Positions 7,377-13,971 of a DNA stretch of 64,000 bases are shown here, one piece after another. The translations under genes were made by a program, and so were the position numbers. How positions within the stretch are numbered: the stretch's first letter is position 1; each line of letters opens with the position of its first letter. Under the pieces are notes generated by a model. That model was not told where the DNA came from. It searched no databases and saw only the letters and a program-made list of their open reading frames with translations. Origin of the DNA: Candidatus Hermodarchaeota archaeon (GTDB lineage: Archaea > Asgardarchaeota > Lokiarchaeia > Sigyniarchaeales > SOKP01); contig JBHLLP010000016.1 in the NCBI GenBank assembly GCA_048885525.1, forward strand, positions 8,458-72,457. Direction: 5' to 3'.

Positions 7377-10349
7377 TTGACAACTCAAGACCCATTAGAT
7401 CATCAAGAATCATTAGACACTGAAAAAATTGAGAGCTTAATTTTAAATGGGTATAATGAAAAAGCTGCTGAAGAAATTTTTACTATTGTAGAAAATTATG
7501 ATAATCATTCTGATAAAGAACTTATTTATCGAAGCCTTAGTTTATTAAATCTGATTTGTGATAAATCTCCAGCAATTTCATTGAGAGCAATCAAAAATAT
7601 AATTCATTTTATAAATGATTCTGATTCTTGGATAAGATTAGTTTCATTAGAAATATCATATCAAATAAGTTTGTTTAGACCTAACTTGTTACTTGAGTTA
7701 TTACCTAAAATTCGAGGAAGATTATATGATCAAGACCCCGCCGTGAGGAGATTAACTGTAAAGATCATTGGTAATCTGATTTTATCCTTACATATCGATT
7801 TGGGAGAAATACAGGAAATTATTGAAGAATATACAGAAAAATTAATGGATAATGATTGGAAAGTAAAGCTCAATGTAATCAAAACTATTCAGAAGATCTT
7901 AAATCAGGATTATAAAAAAATTAGGAATTTAGAACCATTATTATCAATGGTGATCATTAATTTAAGAGACGAAGATGATGATGTTGCTAGAGCTGCAGCA
8001 GAACTTTTAAAGATTCATGGGACATACTTTTTGACAAAGGAAAAGATCCTTTATATTTTATTAAATCTTCTCTATAACGAGGAAAATAGGGTTAAAGAGC
8101 TAATTATTTGGTTATTTGGAGAAATTGGAAAGGAAAAATCTCCAGAAATTATATCAATAATTCCAAAATTAATTAATTTACTAAAAGAAAAAGATTATCG
8201 TATTCAATTAAAAGTAATTGAAGCACTTGTTAATATTGGTGAAAATAATTTTGATCAAATTTGGGCAAATCTTATACATTCCATTTTAGAAGCCAGTGAT
8301 TACAATTATAGAAATTCATTAATAAATGCAATATTTCATCTATCCCGGAAGAATATAACTGAAATATTTCCTTATTTATTTGAAGAACTGGAAAATCCAT
8401 CTGAAAACATCAGAGAAGGTATTGCTCTTGTATTTCAACGCTTATTCGAAGAGTACCAGATTGAATTAGAAAATGAAATTACTAAAATTTTATATCAATT
8501 AGATTCACGTTTTTGGAGAGAAAGAAAAAAAACTATAAATCTCCTCCAACATATTTGTTTCATTTTGGAAAATAAAAAGATTGCTGTCTGGATTACAATT
8601 GAATTAAACAATACTTTAAATATTGAAAAGGATCCAGAAGTGAAAGCAGAAATTATTTATACACTAAAGAATATTAAATCTAATTTTCCAGATATTGATG
8701 GAGCTATCGAAAGAATCAATAATGAATTATCACTATTTCAGAAAAGAATTAACGAGTTCCAGAAGATTCCTGCCCAATTTAGAGAAAAACTGAATTCTTA
8801 TATAGAAAATTTCAAATTTAATGATACAGAGATTCAGTTAAATGAAAAATACAATAAAATATTGAAAAAAATCAAAAAATTCTCATTATTAATTAATAGA
8901 TTTGAATACAAAAGGTTAGCTTTTGATTTAATCGAAGAATGGGAAGAAACTAGGGTTCAAATAATTGAAGAATTAAGTATTATTAAAGGCTTCATCTCTG
9001 AAATATGTGAAGAGAAAAAAGCCGAATTTGTTTCTAATTTAAAAGAAAATATTAAGAAAATAAATAATCGTATTGATGTTCTAAAAGCAGAATTTGATTA
9101 TGTGAAAGAAACTAAGTTTGAAGTTAATCTAGGCAAACGTTTGTCTACACTTGGATCTGATTATATTCAAGAAGATAACCTGGACAATATCACCCAAATT
9201 AGAAAAAAACTGTTCAAAATGGATGGTGATATCAGAGAAATATTGATAGCAAATGTAGAGTTTAATGAGATATTTAAAAACCTATTACAAAAATGGGTTG
9301 CAACTAAAATTGAAATCCAAGAATATTTGAATGATTTAGATCATCAAATTAGATTAATGAAAGATAAATTAATTGAATATAAAGAAGTAGAACCTATAAG
9401 TAATATTCAGATTAGATCGAAAATGATTAATGGGATTAGTTCTGAACTTAATTTTCAACTCCTTCAAAGTCATATTCAGACTATTATTACAGAGAGAATT
9501 GAAGGAATGAAAAAATACAATGATGAATTTAGTGATCTTATTTCTAAACTAGACCTTTTATTAAAAAAAGATGAATTTTCAGATGTTAAGAAATTAGTAG
9601 AAATGAATTCAACACAAATTCAAAATTATATTGAAGATACTGAAAAACAAATTAATAATATCATAGGAAATGAAAAATTATTTGAAGATAATAATATTTT
9701 TAATTTATATATAAGACCTTATATCAATAAGTTTAATTCATCTAAAGAATTATTGATAAATCGATTAAAAACATTCAATAGAAAAGCTAAAAATAAACTT
9801 TACCTAAATCAGTTAAAATACTACGCGAAAATTCTGAATCCGATTAAACTTGATTTATTATCATCTTATATTGACTTAGATATTGAGCGATTAAAAGATC
9901 TTATTCTAAAATTTATAAATAAAAATAAAATCAGTGCAAAAGTAATTAATGACAAACTTTACTTTCAGCAGATAGAATCTGAAATGCCAGATTCAAAAGA
10001 AATTCTCTTTTTTAAAAATATAAAGACGATAGGTAACGAAATTTACCTAAACTTTAAATTATCTAATCCATCAAATTTTGATTTCAAGGATTTACAAATA
10101 TCTCTTAAGATACCCTCTTATCTTAATTTTCAAAGAAAAGAAAGCTTTCCAAAATATCTACAAATAAATGAGTTAAAACCAGGGAAAAATTTCCAATTCA
10201 ATTATGTGCTTAAAGTAGATAAACAAAAAGAACTTAAAAAAAATCTTTTTGATCCTTCAGCTGATGAAATTAAGCTTGACTTGTATTATAGAGATCAATT
10301 CAATATTGCTCGGAAGACGACTAAACATATTGATCTCTTCATTCCTTAA
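7377..10349 (+). CDS. HEAT-repeat protein with coiled-coil, PCI-like winged helix and C-terminal Ig-like domain
   Basis: Many 'L.D.D..VR' HEAT units in the first ~430 aa, a helical middle region, 'LSSYIDLDIERLKDLILKFINKNKISAKV' (PCI-like) and a beta-rich C-terminus. Confidence 0.75.
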   Translation: MTTQDPLDHQESLDTEKIESLILNGYNEKAAEEIFTIVENYDNHSDKELIYRSLSLLNLICDKSPAISLRAIKNIIHFINDSDSWIRLVSLEISYQISLFRPNLLLELLPKIRGRLYDQDPAVRRLTVKIIGNLILSLHIDLGEIQEIIEEYTEKLMDNDWKVKLNVIKTIQKILNQDYKKIRNLEPLLSMVIINLRDEDDDVARAAAELLKIHGTYFLTKEKILYILLNLLYNEENRVKELIIWLFGEIGKEKSPEIISIIPKLINLLKEKDYRIQLKVIEALVNIGENNFDQIWANLIHSILEASDYNYRNSLINAIFHLSRKNITEIFPYLFEELENPSENIREGIALVFQRLFEEYQIELENEITKILYQLDSRFWRERKKTINLLQHICFILENKKIAVWITIELNNTLNIEKDPEVKAEIIYTLKNIKSNFPDIDGAIERINNELSLFQKRINEFQKIPAQFREKLNSYIENFKFNDTEIQLNEKYNKILKKIKKFSLLINRFEYKRLAFDLIEEWEETRVQIIEELSIIKGFISEICEEKKAEFVSNLKENIKKINNRIDVLKAEFDYVKETKFEVNLGKRLSTLGSDYIQEDNLDNITQIRKKLFKMDGDIREILIANVEFNEIFKNLLQKWVATKIEIQEYLNDLDHQIRLMKDKLIEYKEVEPISNIQIRSKMINGISSELNFQLLQSHIQTIITERIEGMKKYNDEFSDLISKLDLLLKKDEFSDVKKLVEMNSTQIQNYIEDTEKQINNIIGNEKLFEDNNIFNLYIRPYINKFNSSKELLINRLKTFNRKAKNKLYLNQLKYYAKILNPIKLDLLSSYIDLDIERLKDLILKFINKNKISAKVINDKLYFQQIESEMPDSKEILFFKNIKTIGNEIYLNFKLSNPSNFDFKDLQISLKIPSYLNFQRKESFPKYLQINELKPGKNFQFNYVLKVDKQKELKKNLFDPSADEIKLDLYYRDQFNIARKTTKHIDLFIP

Positions 10350-10497
10350 AATAACAAGATTTTTGATTGAATTTTTTCATTAATTAATCTCAAATATTCA
10401 AAAATTTAATAATTTATATGGAAAAGATTAATATATCCATCTATACTATTTAAAACTACTTAAATTGATTAATATAATTACAAGAATGAGGTGAAGA

Positions 10498-11563
10498 ATG
10501 CAAGAATTAGAGAGTTATCGATTGACACTGCAAACGAAACTTTTTGGTTGAAACTGTCTCAGTTACACTTGCGACGGCAACATACTGTAAGCTTTTTAGC
10601 GAGAAATTAGAGAAACTACTTGCCAATACAGGATTAAATGGTGATATTGAAGATTCCGCAATTATTCCTGTACCAAATACTAATCTTGTCATGGCTAAAA
10701 ATATAGATATCTTTACTCCAATTATAGATGAACCAGATATCATGGGAGAAATTGCCGCAGCTAATGTTACTAACGATATTTCCGCGCTAAATGTTCCCGA
10801 AATTTCTGGAATGCTTGTTTTCCTAGGATTAAAGAAAAAAATGCCTATGTACATAGCAGAAGGAATACTAAAGGGAATCAAAAACTTTATGGAAAACAAG
10901 TTAAATTCTAAAATTCTTGGAGGTCATACTATTTTCAGCCAATGGCCATTGATTGGGGGCGAAGCCTCTGGTTTCGTTGAAAAGGATAAAATTATCAAAA
11001 AAGATTATGTAGAAGAAGGAGATAAAATAATTCTAACAAAACCAATTGGAAATCAAGCAATAATGGCAGCATACAGACTTCAAAAAAACAATCCTGACCT
11101 TTTAGAATCTTATTCTACAACCGAAATTGACACTTCTATCGATATAGCTGTGAAATTAATGATATCACCCCTTCAAGATGTTGTAAAGACCATTCACACT
11201 TACAAAGATATGTCATTCATTCATTCGATGACAGATGTTAGTGGTTTTGGTCTTGCTGGGCATCTGAGAGAAATGCTTCAAAATTCAGGTCTTTCTGCTA
11301 TAATTGAGAAGATCCCTAGTATTAGACTGACAAGCGACTTAGCTTATGAATTTGGTTATAAATATGATGAATGTGAAATGCCTGAAACTGCTGGGGGGAT
11401 GCTTTTATCTGTTGATCACGAATATGCTGAGGAATTCTCACAGAGACTTAATAGTAAATATGGCGTAAAAAATTGGACTGTAGGTACGATCGATAACATC
11501 AATAAGCCCAAATATGTTCGTGTTTCTGAAAATGTTGAACATATTGAAATAACTAAAATTTAA
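10498..11563 (+). CDS. selD: Selenophosphate synthetase (selenoprotein, Sec18), split by a 31-nt BHB intron: join(10498..10552,10584..11563), 344 aa
   Basis: SD GAGGTGA precedes ATG 10498. Exon 1 reads MQELESYRLTLQTKLFG-TGA(10549-51). After intron removal the sequence continues N-C-K-L..., collinear with the second selD. It has DIFTPIIDEP, AAANVTND, GGHT, LTKPIG and TDVSGFGL.GH motifs and a 3' SECIS. Confidence 0.92.
10553..10583 (+). other. Bulge-helix-bulge (EndA-type) intron in selD mRNA
   Basis: Central helix GTTG(10547-50)/CAAC(10578-81), 3-nt bulges AAA(10551-53) and ATA(10582-84), inner helix CTGTC/GACGG and outer pair G10546-C10585. Cutting after the second nucleotide of each bulge removes 31 nt and restores the frame. 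Confidence 0.88.
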
Positions 11564-11635
11564 CGATGTCAATGAAATAAGCAAAAACACATTATTGTGG
11601 TAGTTTATTGAGAATACTGTTGCAAAACAGCATCG
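11564..11635 (+). promoter_or_regulatory. Eukaryote-like SECIS element (3' UTR of selD-1)
   Basis: ATGA(11572-75)-AATAAGC-AAAAA-CAC..GTG-GTA-GTTTATT-GA(11610-11): AUGA/GA core, upper stem, unpaired A run and apical ministem. Confidence 0.88.
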
Positions 11636-11837
11636 AAAATATTTGAAAATATTATGAATTATCTTATTTTTAAAAAAATTTCCTATTCTGTGTGAAATAC
11701 TAAGTTATATCTTTATTATTAATTATCGATATTTTCGATAAAAAATATCGAAAAGATTAATAAATTAGAAATATTCCCTCTTATACCATAAAAATTAAAA
11801 TGAGAACTTAAGAAAAAAAATAACAGAAGAACAACCC

Positions 11838-11999
11838 GATTGGTACCATCCTTATTAAGTAGAAGTGATTCAATTAGAAAAAGAGTTTAAAAAGGAGAGA
11901 TTACCAGTATTATCAATATCTAACGAATATTCCTAAGAGCATAAAGCATCTCTGATAACCAGAATTGAAGCATTCTTAGAAATGTTAAAAAAAATTTAA
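11838..11999 (+). pseudogene. Remnant of the C-terminus of a 2-hydroxyacyl-CoA dehydratase (HgdA/B-like) subunit
   Basis: The frame reads DWYHPY*VEVIQLEKEFKKERLPVLSISNEYS*EHKASLITRIEAFLEML. 'TRIEAFLEML' is the typical family C-terminus, and there are two internal TAA stops (11856, 11934). Confidence 0.7.
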
Positions 12000-12069
12000 T
12001 TAAAAAAAACAGTATAATATTATATACTGAAATATTTGAATCAGATTTAATTATTAATGTGAGGTGAAA

Positions 12070-13095
12070 ATGGAAAAACCAGAGTATAGGCTGACCCTAG
12101 ACGTTAAGATACACGGATGATCATGTAAGCTTGGACAAAACGATTTGAATGACTTATTAGTTAGAGTAGGATTAGCAGGAGACATTGAAGATGCTGCTAT
12201 TATACCAATACCTAATAGCGATCTGGTTCTTGTTAAAAATATCGATGTTTTCACACCAATTATTGATGAACCCGAACTCGCTGGTGAAATTGCGGCATGC
12301 AATGTAACTAATGACATTTTTGCGATGAATGTGCCTGAGATTTCAGGTATGCTTGTATTTCTTGCAATTAGTACAAGAACACCCATGGAAGTTGCCGAAG
12401 GTATTTTAAGAGGAATAAAGTATTTTATGGAGAAAAAAATTAATTCTCGAGTGGTTGGTGGACACACGATTTATAGTGAATGGCCATTAATAGGAGGAGA
12501 AGCATCTGGATATGTCGAAAAAAGTGCTATTATCCAAAAGCAAGGTGTAAAAAAAGGAGATAAATTAGTTTTAACCAAACCGATAGGATTGCAAGCAATA
12601 ATGGCATCATATAGGATTCTGAAAGATTTTCCAGAAATGTTAGAACACTATTCAGCTGAAGAACTTCAAAAGTCAATTGATCTTGCCATAAAAATTATGA
12701 CAACTCCAAATCAAGATGTTGTAAAAACTATTCATTCTTACAAGGATTTTTCATTCATTCATGCCCTAAGTGATATCACTGGATTTGGCTTAGGGGGACA
12801 TACGGCTGAAATGCTGCAAAACTCAAATCTATCAGCTATAATTGAGACTGTTCCATCAATTAAGTTTTCTGAACAGTTATCGCATGAGTTAGGGTATGCT
12901 TTTGATGATTGTAAGTGCCATGAAACTGCAGGGGGTATGCTCCTGGCTGTTGATCCTACAAAAGTTGAAGAATTTACAAATAGGCTTACAATTAATAAAA
13001 TATCAAACTGGATTATTGGTACAATTAATCAACAAAAACCAGGTTTGGTTCAGATTTCAGAGCAAGTTCAAAACATTGAAATTACAGAAATTTAA
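12070..13095 (+). CDS. selD: Selenophosphate synthetase (selenoprotein, Sec17), intronless paralog, 341 aa
   Basis: SD GAGGTGA precedes ATG 12070. It reads MEKPEYRLTLDVKIHG-TGA(12118-20)-SCKL, in frame with ORF 12145..13095, giving a UxxK active-site motif. A 3' SECIS is present. Confidence 0.95.
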
Positions 13096-13096
13096 A

Positions 13097-13166
13097 GATG
13101 TTAATGATATAAGCTTAAACATTTCATATGGCTGCTTATTGAAAATTCCACTTGCGAAGTGGCATC
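13097..13166 (+). promoter_or_regulatory. Eukaryote-like SECIS element (3' UTR of selD-2)
   Basis: ATGA(13104-07)-T-ATAAGC-TTAAA-CAT..ATG-GCT-GCTTAT-T-GA(13141-42); same architecture as the first SECIS. Confidence 0.88.
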
Positions 13167-13179
13167 AAAAATGAAACTA

Positions 13180-13971
13180 TTATCTTTCTTTAATTTTTCC
13201 ATTAAGTTTTGTGATAATTTCTCTAATTTCATTAAGAGCGTTATCTATTAATTTTTCACCGTGTTCTACATTAAAGGCGGTTATTGAAACCTCTACCTCT
13301 ACTGATAAGCCAATTCTAGGATGGGTTTTAATCCAAAGTTGAGGATACTTTTTCTCTAATTCATTTGTATATGCTGCAATCTGGCTCTCTCCAACACCTG
13401 AAAAAAGAAAACCTTTCTCAATAAAATTTCCTTGTTGTTCTTTTAGAATTGGTATAATAATATTTCTAAACATAGCTTTTAACTCAGCAGGTACACCAGG
13501 TAAAATAAAAATTGTAATATTTTTTTCAGTAAGCTTAACGCCTGGAGCAGTTCCTACTGTATTAGGTAGCGGAATAGAACCTTTCGGAAGATATGCCATT
13601 TTTTCTCGTTCTTTAGTCATACCTTCGAGTTGTAATAGTCCTTTTTTATGAGCTCGTTTGTAAGTCTTCTCAATAGTTTTATACGCATGATGATCTAGCT
13701 CTAAATTCCTATTTAATCCATATGCTATTCCCTGCAAAGTCATATCGTCAAATGTGGGACCGAGTCCTCCAGATGTTATAATAATATCTGGTTTACGTTG
13801 TAAAATTTGTTTTAATGTCGTCGAAATTACTTCAAGCTCATCTCCAATAGTAATAATCCTTTTAACTTGATGTCCATACTTAGTAATTCTTTTTGCCATC
13901 CAATTAGAATTTGTATCTTGAGTCTTTCCAATAAGGATTTCATTTCCAATCATTAATAATTCAATTATCAT
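13180..13971 (-). CDS. CinA-like / molybdopterin-binding domain protein
   Basis: IGNEILIGKTQDTNS.W, SGGLGPTFDDMT, N.VGTAPG and LPGVPAE motifs. Confidence 0.9.
   Translation of the reverse strand: MIIELLMIGNEILIGKTQDTNSNWMAKRITKYGHQVKRIITIGDELEVISTTLKQILQRKPDIIITSGGLGPTFDDMTLQGIAYGLNRNLELDHHAYKTIEKTYKRAHKKGLLQLEGMTKEREKMAYLPKGSIPLPNTVGTAPGVKLTEKNITIFILPGVPAELKAMFRNIIIPILKEQQGNFIEKGFLFSGVGESQIAAYTNELEKKYPQLWIKTHPRIGLSVEVEVSITAFNVEHGEKLIDNALNEIREIITKLNGKIKER

What the first reader, a model, noticed from the sequence alone, without database searches (positions are those of the whole stretch)
10498..13166. Tandem spliced/unspliced selD pair: possible splicing-based switch for selenophosphate supply
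Seen: two Sec-containing selD paralogs lie ~500 bp apart, each with SD GAGGTGA and its own SECIS, and only one needs splicing. The Sec UGA itself forms part of the BHB: UG lies in the central helix and A is the first bulge base. Unspliced RNA gives a 17-aa peptide (stop at UGA) or a 30-aa selenopeptide MQELESYRLTLQTKLFGUNCLSYTCDGNIL (TAA 10588). Inference: ribosome dwell at UGA depends on Sec-tRNA supply and could change BHB folding, making splicing selenium-responsive. This would resemble, in concept, non-spliceosomal HAC1/XBP1 regulation, which uses tRNA ligase. It is a hypothesis only.
Basis: inference. Interest (0 to 1): 0.8.

Follow-up and report, generated by a model that had tools for sequence, protein, structure and literature searches.

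The report
tRNA-type mini-intron splits Asgard selD
One of two neighbouring selenophosphate-synthetase genes of an Asgard archaeon is interrupted, right after its selenocysteine codon, by a 31-base insert shaped like a tRNA intron that almost certainly has to be cut out of the mRNA, but comparison with about 50 related genomes gives no sign that this is a selenium-sensing switch.

Summary
Two Sec-containing selD genes lie 506 bp apart, each with GAGGTGA, an in-frame UGA and a covarying 3' SECIS-like element. selD-1 is broken by 31 nt (10553-10583) that fold as a bulge-helix-bulge. The helix is GUUG/CAAC and includes the UG of the Sec codon. The bulges are AAA and AUA. The predicted cuts rebuild G-U-N-C-K, exactly as 35 uninterrupted orthologues read.

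Two other lineages carry different 31-nt inserts at the same site, with a compensatory change in the helix. The interrupted genes are under the same purifying selection as the intact ones (omega about 0.05-0.10). The genome encodes two EndA paralogues and RtcB. I read it as a real EndA/RtcB-spliced mRNA intron, though no RNA data exist.

The switch idea is not supported. Only 3 of 38 selD-1 copies have the intron, in three separate clades. In two other species the other paralogue, selD-2, carries a 30-nt BHB intron, and one of them has no selD-1. I confirmed 31-nt inserts with the same geometry in purA and mevalonate kinase of this genome, so nothing ties the intron to selenium.

The scan has already reported similar mini-introns in other Asgard genomes. 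In the papers I could search, splicing inside an archaeal coding sequence is confirmed only for cbf5.

The parts
10488..10494 (+). Shine-Dalgarno-like GAGGTGA of selD-1, 3 nt before the ATG
   Evidence: Read directly.
10498..10552 (+). selD-1 exon 1: MQELESYRLTLQTKLFG, Sec (UGA 10549-10551), and the first base of the Asn codon
   Evidence: Identical in reading to 35 uninterrupted orthologues.
10546..10585 (+). Bulge-helix-bulge motif. Closing pair G10546-C10585. Helix GUUG 10547-50 with CAAC 10578-81. Bulges AAA 10551-53 and AUA 10582-84. Inner helix CUGUC 10554-58 with GACGG 10573-77.
   Evidence: It is the minimum-energy fold in local context. The register test and shuffles support it. Covariation with G021 and the metagenome copy is seen.
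10553..10583 (+). 31-nt intron. Predicted cuts fall after A10552 and after U10583.
   Evidence: It is absent from 35 orthologues at exactly this point. It is present in DNA contigs of the source sediment.
10584..11563 (+). selD-1 exon 2 (AC TGT AAG ... to stop 11561-11563). The spliced product is 344 aa.
   Evidence: NCBIfam selD match. Terminal-branch dN/dS is 0.08-0.10.
11565..11634 (+). SECIS-like element of selD-1: outer stem, AUGA...GA core, AUAAGC/GCUUAU-type arm (AUAAGC/GUUUAU in this copy) with an apical AAA and a CAC/GUG mini-stem, plus an extra 3' hairpin
   Evidence: Alignment of 42 sequences: 97% of cells paired, 6 pairs changed on both sides, slid controls 23-52%.
12061..12067 (+). 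Shine-Dalgarno-like GAGGTGA of selD-2
   Evidence: Read directly.
12070..13095 (+). selD-2, uninterrupted in this genome, with Sec UGA at 12118-12120 (G-U-S-C-K)
   Evidence: Orthologues found in 47 of the 53 other genomes of the genus.
13097..13166 (+). SECIS-like element of selD-2, same architecture as that of selD-1

Best explanation
selD-1 carries a 31-nt archaeal bulge-helix-bulge (tRNA-type) intron.

Proposed steps:
1. The nascent transcript folds locally into the BHB.
2. The splicing endonuclease EndA, here probably an alpha-beta heterotetramer, cuts after A10552 and after U10583.
3. RtcB joins the exons.
4. The spliced mRNA encodes a 344-aa SelD whose Sec18 is decoded with the help of the 3' SECIS-like element.

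Splicing is most likely constitutive. The intron is one of a population of roughly 30-nt mini-introns scattered through protein-coding genes of this Asgard lineage. The tandem selD-1/selD-2 pair is an old duplication whose function does not depend on the intron.

Shown: the geometry, the exact junction, conservation of the fold with different sequences, purifying selection, and the presence of the enzymes.

Inferred: that cutting and joining actually occur, and that they are unregulated.
For: 1. The predicted cut sites give GGU UGA A|AC UGU AAG, that is G-U-N-C-K. This is exactly the reading of 35 uninterrupted orthologues.

2. Two further copies carry a 31-nt insert at the same site with 42-55% identical sequence: G021 (L005:271-301) and metagenome contig Ga0114923_10015540 (L049:4754-4784). 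Both keep a 4/4 central helix, 3-nt bulges and an inner stem. Helix pair 2 changes U-A to C-G through a synonymous GGU-to-GGC change plus an intron A-to-G change.

3. Terminal-branch dN/dS is 0.08-0.10 for G000 (dS 0.33) and 0.05 for G021 (dS 0.69). The median for intron-less pairs is 0.08. Exon 2 is open for 325 codons.

4. The genome has two EndA paralogues, one with and one without the catalytic-type His, and one RtcB.

5. selD-2 of G014 and G069 carries a fully canonical 30-nt hBHBh' intron inside EWPL|IGGEASG. In G069 the intron holds an in-frame TGA. G014 has no other selD detected.

6. purA and mevalonate kinase of this genome carry 31-nt inserts of the same geometry (the central helix pairs 4/4 in purA, 3/4 in mevalonate kinase) after codons 13-15.

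7. The insert is present in independent DNA contigs.
Against: - There is no RNA evidence of any kind, because no RNA run holds the stretch.
- The outer exon-exon helix is only one G-C pair plus wobble and U.U pairs, so the 3' cut site sits in a relaxed motif.
- In 25-40-nt contexts an alternative fold that pairs exon 1 with exon 2 is 2-5 kcal/mol more stable than the BHB in G000 and G021.
- 'Constitutive' is inferred from the distribution among species. It has not been measured.
- My genome-wide BHB scans could not separate real introns from background. The size of the 'population' therefore rests on two cases that I verified, plus unverified first-stage notes.
Confidence: 0.78

Rival explanations
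1. Selenium-responsive switch. A ribosome waiting at the UGA, which lies inside the central helix, competes with BHB folding. The spliced fraction of selD-1 mRNA would then track Sec-tRNA supply, while selD-2 gives a basal supply.
For: The UGA is physically part of the helix. In all three intron-bearing copies the insert is open in the exon-1 frame and ends at the same UAA, so unspliced RNA yields only a short peptide. Archaeal transcription and translation can be coupled (established knowledge).
Against: Only 3 of 38 selD-1 copies have the intron, in three separate clades, and 35 species keep the pair without it. In G014 and G069 the interrupted paralogue is selD-2, at a site far from the UGA. 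The same 5'-proximal 31-nt design is found in purA and mevalonate kinase, which have no UGA. Nothing in the intron is conserved beyond what the BHB needs. A ribosome paused at the UGA would cover the 5' half of the BHB whatever the selenium level, so the direction of any effect is unclear (inference).
Confidence: 0.05
2. selD-1 of this genome is a pseudogene disabled by a 31-nt insertion, and selD-2 does all the work.
For: A second, intact paralogue lies beside it. The insertion shifts the frame. A 5-nt repeat (ACTGT) flanks the insert in G000.
Against: Terminal-branch omega is as low as in intact orthologues, and there are no further lesions in 325 codons. The SD, ATG, UGA and SECIS are all kept. 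Three lineages keep a spliceable fold with different sequences. The ACTGT repeat is absent from the other two copies.
Confidence: 0.06
3. The insert is skipped or read through by the ribosome, either by translational bypass of the phage T4 gene 60 type or by a +1 frameshift, without any RNA splicing.
For: In G000 the codons AAC UGU occur both before and after the gap, which could serve as take-off and landing sites. The insert has no stop in the exon-1 frame in any of the three copies.
Against: In G021 and the metagenome copy the Asn codon is split (A|AC) and there are no matching take-off and landing codons. A frameshift product would put 10-12 residues between Sec and the catalytic Lys of the invariant U-x-C-K motif. 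The selD-2 intron of G069 contains an in-frame TGA, and the first-stage note on purA (e1-5604490, not checked by me) reports a stop in every frame of that insert.
Confidence: 0.02
4. The intron is spliced, but it is a mobile element that enters this exact site repeatedly. That would mean three independent gains, as opposed to one old intron lost a dozen times.
For: The tree forces three changes. One gain would need at least about 12 precise losses. 31 nt is the common size of mini-introns in this genome, so equal length need not mean common descent. A 2026 preprint infers many independent gains of tRNA introns in Asgard archaea (10.64898/2026.10.13.758758).
Against: The three inserts share their ends (xCU... 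and ...GCAxxAU) and the exact site. dS between the clades is saturated (1.2 to above 2.5), so old homologous introns would look this divergent. No homing enzyme or known insertion mechanism is at hand.
Confidence: 0.3

Closest known systems
BHB intron of the cbf5 pre-mRNA in Crenarchaeota (Yokobori et al. 2009, PMC2738675, and the earlier work it cites)
   Same: A short tRNA-type intron inside a protein-coding sequence. It often has a relaxed cleavage motif, occurs in hosts with hetero-oligomeric EndA, and shows lineage-specific presence and absence. Such genes are easily mis-annotated as frameshifted.
   Different: The phylum (Asgard) and the gene (selD, a selenoprotein) differ. The intron sits one base after the Sec codon, and two paralogues carry introns at two different sites in different species. 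Splicing here is predicted, not demonstrated.
Archaeal tRNA introns with the hBHBh' motif, including the 31-nt T-loop intron of Lokiarchaeota tRNA-Sec (Mariotti et al. 2016, PMC4989117)
   Same: A 4-bp helix, two 3-nt bulges on opposite strands, cuts after the second bulge base, and a size near 30 nt.
   Different: The host RNA is an mRNA. Half of the helix is made of codons (Gly and Sec), so exon sequence is under both coding and structural constraint.
HAC1/XBP1 unconventional mRNA splicing (Ire1 plus tRNA ligase)
   Same: Non-spliceosomal removal of a short intron that changes the reading frame. Ends are joined by a tRNA-type ligase (RtcB for XBP1).
   Different: HAC1/XBP1 depends on a dedicated stress-sensing nuclease and is demonstrably regulated. 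Here the general tRNA endonuclease is the likely enzyme, and no sensor or regulation is in evidence.
Asgard selD genes and their type-II-like SECIS (Mariotti 2016, PMC4989117; ISME J 2024, PMC11227280)
   Same: Sec-containing SelD and a distinct SECIS with an additional apical stem. The 2024 paper reports 51 Loki/Thor organisms with two or more selD genes.
   Different: Neither paper mentions introns or frameshifts in selD. The extra 3' hairpin that forms a three-way junction is seen here in both paralogues.

Membership tests
Archaeal bulge-helix-bulge (tRNA-type) intron | 4-bp central helix flanked by two 3-nt bulges on opposite strands | tested here: met
   G000 has GUUG/CAAC with bulges AAA and AUA. 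G021 and L049 have GCUG/CAGU with bulges AAU or AAC and AUA. All pair 4/4.
Archaeal bulge-helix-bulge (tRNA-type) intron | Cuts after the second base of each bulge leave a functional exon junction | tested here: met
   The junction gives G-U-N-C-K as in 35 uninterrupted orthologues. No other frame-restoring register has a full helix.
Archaeal bulge-helix-bulge (tRNA-type) intron | Flanking helices h (exon-exon) and h' (inside the intron) | tested here: inconclusive
   h' is good: 5 bp in G000, 2+7 bp in G021, 3+5 bp in L049. h is only one G-C pair followed by U.U and U.G. This is the relaxed HBh' form, which needs a broad-specificity EndA.
Archaeal bulge-helix-bulge (tRNA-type) intron | Splicing endonuclease and RtcB ligase encoded by the host | tested here: met
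   Two PF01974 paralogues (104.5 and 70.2 bits) and one PF01139 match (570.8 bits) in G000.
Archaeal bulge-helix-bulge (tRNA-type) intron | Excision and exon joining seen in RNA | not testable with these tools
   No RNA run holds the stretch. The 31-nt 'skips' are DNA of intron-less relatives.
SelD, selenide water dikinase (NCBIfam TIGR00476) | Score above the curated cut-off and an N-terminal (U/C)-x-C-K active-site motif | tested here: met
   181.9 bits (selD-2) and 155.8 bits (selD-1 exon 2) against a cut-off of 125. The motifs are GUSCK and, after splicing, GUNCK.
Asgard ('loki') eukaryote-like SECIS, type-II-like form of selD | 3'-UTR stem with an AUGA...GA core, an apical AAA, an extra apical mini-stem, and support from compensatory changes | tested here: met
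   97% of cells paired, 6 pairs changed on both sides, slid controls 23-52%. The features match the description in PMC4989117.
Rfam SECIS families | Match to a curated covariance model | tested here: not met
   No SECIS model matched 10300-13400, even at E up to 10.
Regulated unconventional splicing of the HAC1/XBP1 type | Splicing triggered by a dedicated sensor nuclease in response to a signal | not tested
   No Ire1-like sensor was searched for, and regulation cannot be tested without RNA. The distribution among species argues against a conserved regulatory role.
Programmed translational bypass (phage T4 gene 60 type) | Matching take-off and landing codons flanking the gap | tested here: not met
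   Present by chance in G000 (AAC UGU on both sides). Absent in G021 and L049, where the Asn codon is split.

The most novel reading that the evidence does not exclude
Because the Sec UGA lies inside the central helix of the BHB, a ribosome stalled there while waiting for Sec-tRNA competes kinetically with EndA. In the species that carry the intron, the share of selD-1 mRNA that gets spliced would then report selenium status. This would be a translation-coupled splicing switch in an archaeon related to the ancestor of eukaryotes.
Probability: 0.05. Interest if true: 0.85.

Novelty: new member of a known kind. Interest (0 to 1): 0.55.

Why it matters
In the papers I could search, splicing of an archaeal coding sequence by the tRNA machinery is confirmed for a single gene, cbf5 of Crenarchaeota.

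Here a core gene of selenium metabolism in an Asgard archaeon needs such splicing, and in at least one relative (G014) the only selD found does. Two consequences follow.
- Standard annotation, already blind to the UGA, will mis-call these genes. Selenoproteome surveys of Asgard archaea may therefore undercount or truncate selD.
- Together with the purA and mevalonate-kinase cases in the same genome, and similar cases this scan has reported in other Asgard genomes, it suggests that enzyme-spliced mini-introns in mRNAs are common in this lineage. That bears on how intron-bearing protein genes and tRNA-ligase-dependent mRNA splicing arose.

The specific selenium-switch idea would be striking, but it currently has no support.

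Tried and rejected
- RNA evidence: the look-up of sequencing runs listed no RNA holder. Laying four DNA runs showed only that the insert is real and that intron-less relatives share the sediment. Their 31-nt 'skips' come from 85-91% identical contigs and are not spliced RNA.
- Rfam: no SECIS or other family reached even E = 10 in 10300-13400.
- Genome-wide scans: I looked for BHB geometry combined with ORF joining, first with both flanks at least 60 codons, then in a 5'-proximal version requiring an SD. Neither gave enrichment over slid-partner decoys at any length. Background from adjacent genes and chance ORFs swamps the signal, so I cannot count the mRNA introns of this genome.
- First BHB guess: I initially placed both bulges on the same side of the helix, and no register fitted. 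The correct geometry, with bulges on opposite strands, fits at once.
- Alternative BHB-like pairing: CAGU 10560-63 with ACUG 10584-87 also spans 31 nt, but it would give U-N-C-Q and lose the catalytic Lys. It is absent from the other two copies, so I rejected it.
- Independent translation of exon 2: starting from TTG 10544 would lack Sec, and the upstream frame is closed in G021. Rejected.
- Forcing G000 and G021 together on the 19-gene tree was not rejected (AU p = 0.067). The 37-gene tree with the third copy forces three changes.
Full report
**What is there.** The + strand of 10488-13166 holds two selD genes.
- selD-2 (ATG 12070, stop 13093-13095) is continuous, with an in-frame UGA at 12118 in G-U-S-C-K.
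- selD-1 starts at ATG 10498 and reads 17 codons to UGA 10549-10551. The frame then runs 12 more codons to TAA 10588. The SelD body (325 codons) lies in the +1 frame and ends at 11561-11563.
- Both products pass the NCBIfam selD cut-off.
- Each gene is preceded by GAGGTGA and followed directly by a conserved structured element.

The window belongs to a 3.58-Mb, 87-contig genome. A genome of the same genus is filed at NCBI as 'Candidatus Thorarchaeota archaeon'.

**The insert and its fold.** Removing 31 nt gives G-U-N-C-K-L-F-S-E-K.

In the archaeal BHB the two 3-nt bulges lie on opposite strands of a 4-bp helix, and each is cut after its second base. This geometry is described in the introduction of preprint 10.64898/2026.10.13.758758 and is established knowledge. 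With it, the motif is:
- helix GUUG 10547-50 with CAAC 10578-81;
- bulges AAA 10551-53 and AUA 10582-84;
- inner helix CUGUC with GACGG;
- cuts after 10552 and 10583.

This fold is the minimum-energy structure in a local context. Shuffled inserts reach it in under 1% of trials. The outer exon-exon helix is weak, so the motif is of the relaxed kind.

**Comparison with relatives.** I searched 54 genomes of the genus.
- 37 have selD-1 and 48 have selD-2.
- I read the selD-1 junction in all 37. In 35 it reads GGN UGA AAY/GAC UGY AAR without interruption, which is exactly the predicted spliced sequence.
- Only G000 and G021 carry an insert.
- A pattern scan of metagenome contigs found a third copy, Ga0114923_10015540.

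All three inserts are 31 nt, lie at the same bond, and share only their ends (42-55% identity). Each folds into the same motif with its own inner stem. Where the Gly codon is GGC rather than GGU, the intron partner is G rather than A.

In G021 and the metagenome copy the Asn codon is split A|AC. Only exact cutting at the BHB-predicted bonds restores it, which rules out ribosomal bypass.

**The genes are alive.**
- dN/dS on the terminal branches of the intron-bearing genes is 0.08-0.10 for G000 and 0.05 for G021. The median among intron-less pairs is 0.08.
- The SD, start codon, UGA and 3' element are intact.
- The genome encodes two EndA paralogues, one with and one without the catalytic-type histidine, which fits an alpha-beta enzyme of broad specificity. 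It also encodes one RtcB.
- The preprint cited above reports two EndA paralogues in 44 of 60 Asgard genomes.

**The 3' elements.** Forty-two 3' UTRs of both paralogues align into one structure:
- an outer stem;
- an AUGA...GA core;
- an AUAAGC/GCUUAU arm ending in AAA and a CAC/GUG mini-stem;
- an extra 3' hairpin.

97% of cells are paired, six pairs change on both sides, and slid controls reach 23-52%. This agrees with the distinct, type-II-like SECIS described for Loki SPS (PMC4989117). Rfam has no matching model.

**Is it a switch?** Four results speak against a designed spliced/unspliced pair.
1. The three intron-bearing selD-1 genes sit in three separately supported clades of a 37-gene tree. 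The character therefore needs three changes, or one gain and a dozen or so losses.
2. The tandem pair is kept without any intron in 35 species.
3. The other paralogue can be the interrupted one. selD-2 of G014 and G069 carries a 30-nt, fully canonical hBHBh' intron inside EWPL|IGGEASG. The helices are CCCU/AGGG and CCUU/GGGG, the inner helix has 7 bp and the outer helix 3 bp, and G069 has an in-frame TGA in the intron. G069 has an intact selD-1. G014, 95% complete, has none detected, so its only selD would depend on splicing.
4. In G000 itself, purA (TGG GGA G|31 nt|AC GAA GGC; helix GGGG/CCCU) and mevalonate kinase (GGC GAA|31 nt|CAT) carry the same kind of insert (in mevalonate kinase the helix GGCG/CGCA pairs only 3/4) within their first 15 codons. 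I followed these up from first-stage notes. Further notes of this kind exist for this genome and for other Asgard genomes, but I did not verify them.

Nothing in the selD-1 intron is conserved beyond what the BHB needs. The switch remains conceivable in the species that have the intron, but it has no support.

**Comparison with what is known.**
- The closest precedent is the cbf5 pre-mRNA intron of Crenarchaeota. It has a relaxed motif, occurs with a hetero-oligomeric EndA, and was gained and then lost in some lineages (PMC2738675).
- Papers on Asgard selenoproteomes report multiple selD genes but no introns (PMC11227280).
- Lokiarchaeota tRNA-Sec has a 31-nt intron (PMC4989117).

I file the feature as a new member of the known kind 'BHB intron in an archaeal protein-coding gene'. 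Its position at a Sec codon is new. Its regulation is unproven.

**Limits.**
- No RNA data exist for this stretch.
- The DNA 'skips' of 31 nt come from related, intron-less organisms in the same sediment.
- My genome-wide scans were uninformative.

Noticed in passing
G000 contig C54, minus strand near 13469; contig C10, minus strand 89657-89688: purA and mevalonate kinase are each split by a 31-nt BHB-like insert inside a conserved N-terminal motif (WG|DEGKGK and LFGE|HFVVYG). Together with selD-1, all three inserts lie within the first 13-18 codons, which suggests a 5' bias of mRNA mini-introns in this genome.
   Followed up: partly
L020:2104-2133 (minus strand, G014) and L072:572-601 (G069): A canonical 30-nt hBHBh' intron in selD-2 inside EWPL|IGGEASG. 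The G069 copy holds an in-frame TGA. G014 has no selD-1 detected.
   Followed up: yes
window 11565-11634 and 13097-13166: Both selD SECIS-like elements form a three-way junction, with an extra 3' hairpin (CUGUU/AACAG or CCACU/AGUGG) that covaries across 42 sequences. Its role in Sec insertion is unknown.
   Followed up: partly
window 10541-10606: In contexts of 25-40 nt on each side, a fold pairing exon 1 (UUUUUGGUUGAAA) with exon 2 (UUUUUAGCGAGAA) is 2-4 kcal/mol more stable than the BHB. G021 has an analogous alternative (4-5 kcal/mol); the metagenome copy does not. It might compete with the BHB or bring the exons together.
   Followed up: no
G005, G007, G045, G046, G069 (coordinates): In these relatives selD-1 and selD-2 start about 2.2-2.7 kb apart, against about 1.3-1.6 kb elsewhere in the genus, so something is inserted between the paralogues.
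   Followed up: no
L021 (G013) and L072 (G069), downstream of selD-2: The 3' UTR of selD-2 in these two genomes does not start with the usual GAUGU...AUGA element directly after the stop. A related-looking AAAUGA... segment lies about 30 nt further on. This may be a shifted or different SECIS.
   Followed up: no
whole genome G000: ARAGORN calls introns in about half of the tRNA genes it reports, including two implausibly long ones (782 and 871 nt in tRNA-Asn and tRNA-Ser). tRNA-Sec is called without an intron.
   Followed up: no
window 7377-10349 (+) and 13180-13971 (-): The neighbours are a 990-aa helical-repeat protein with no clear family match and a CinA/NMN-deamidase-like gene (NF002291, 257.7 bits, below its cut-off of 293).
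   Followed up: no
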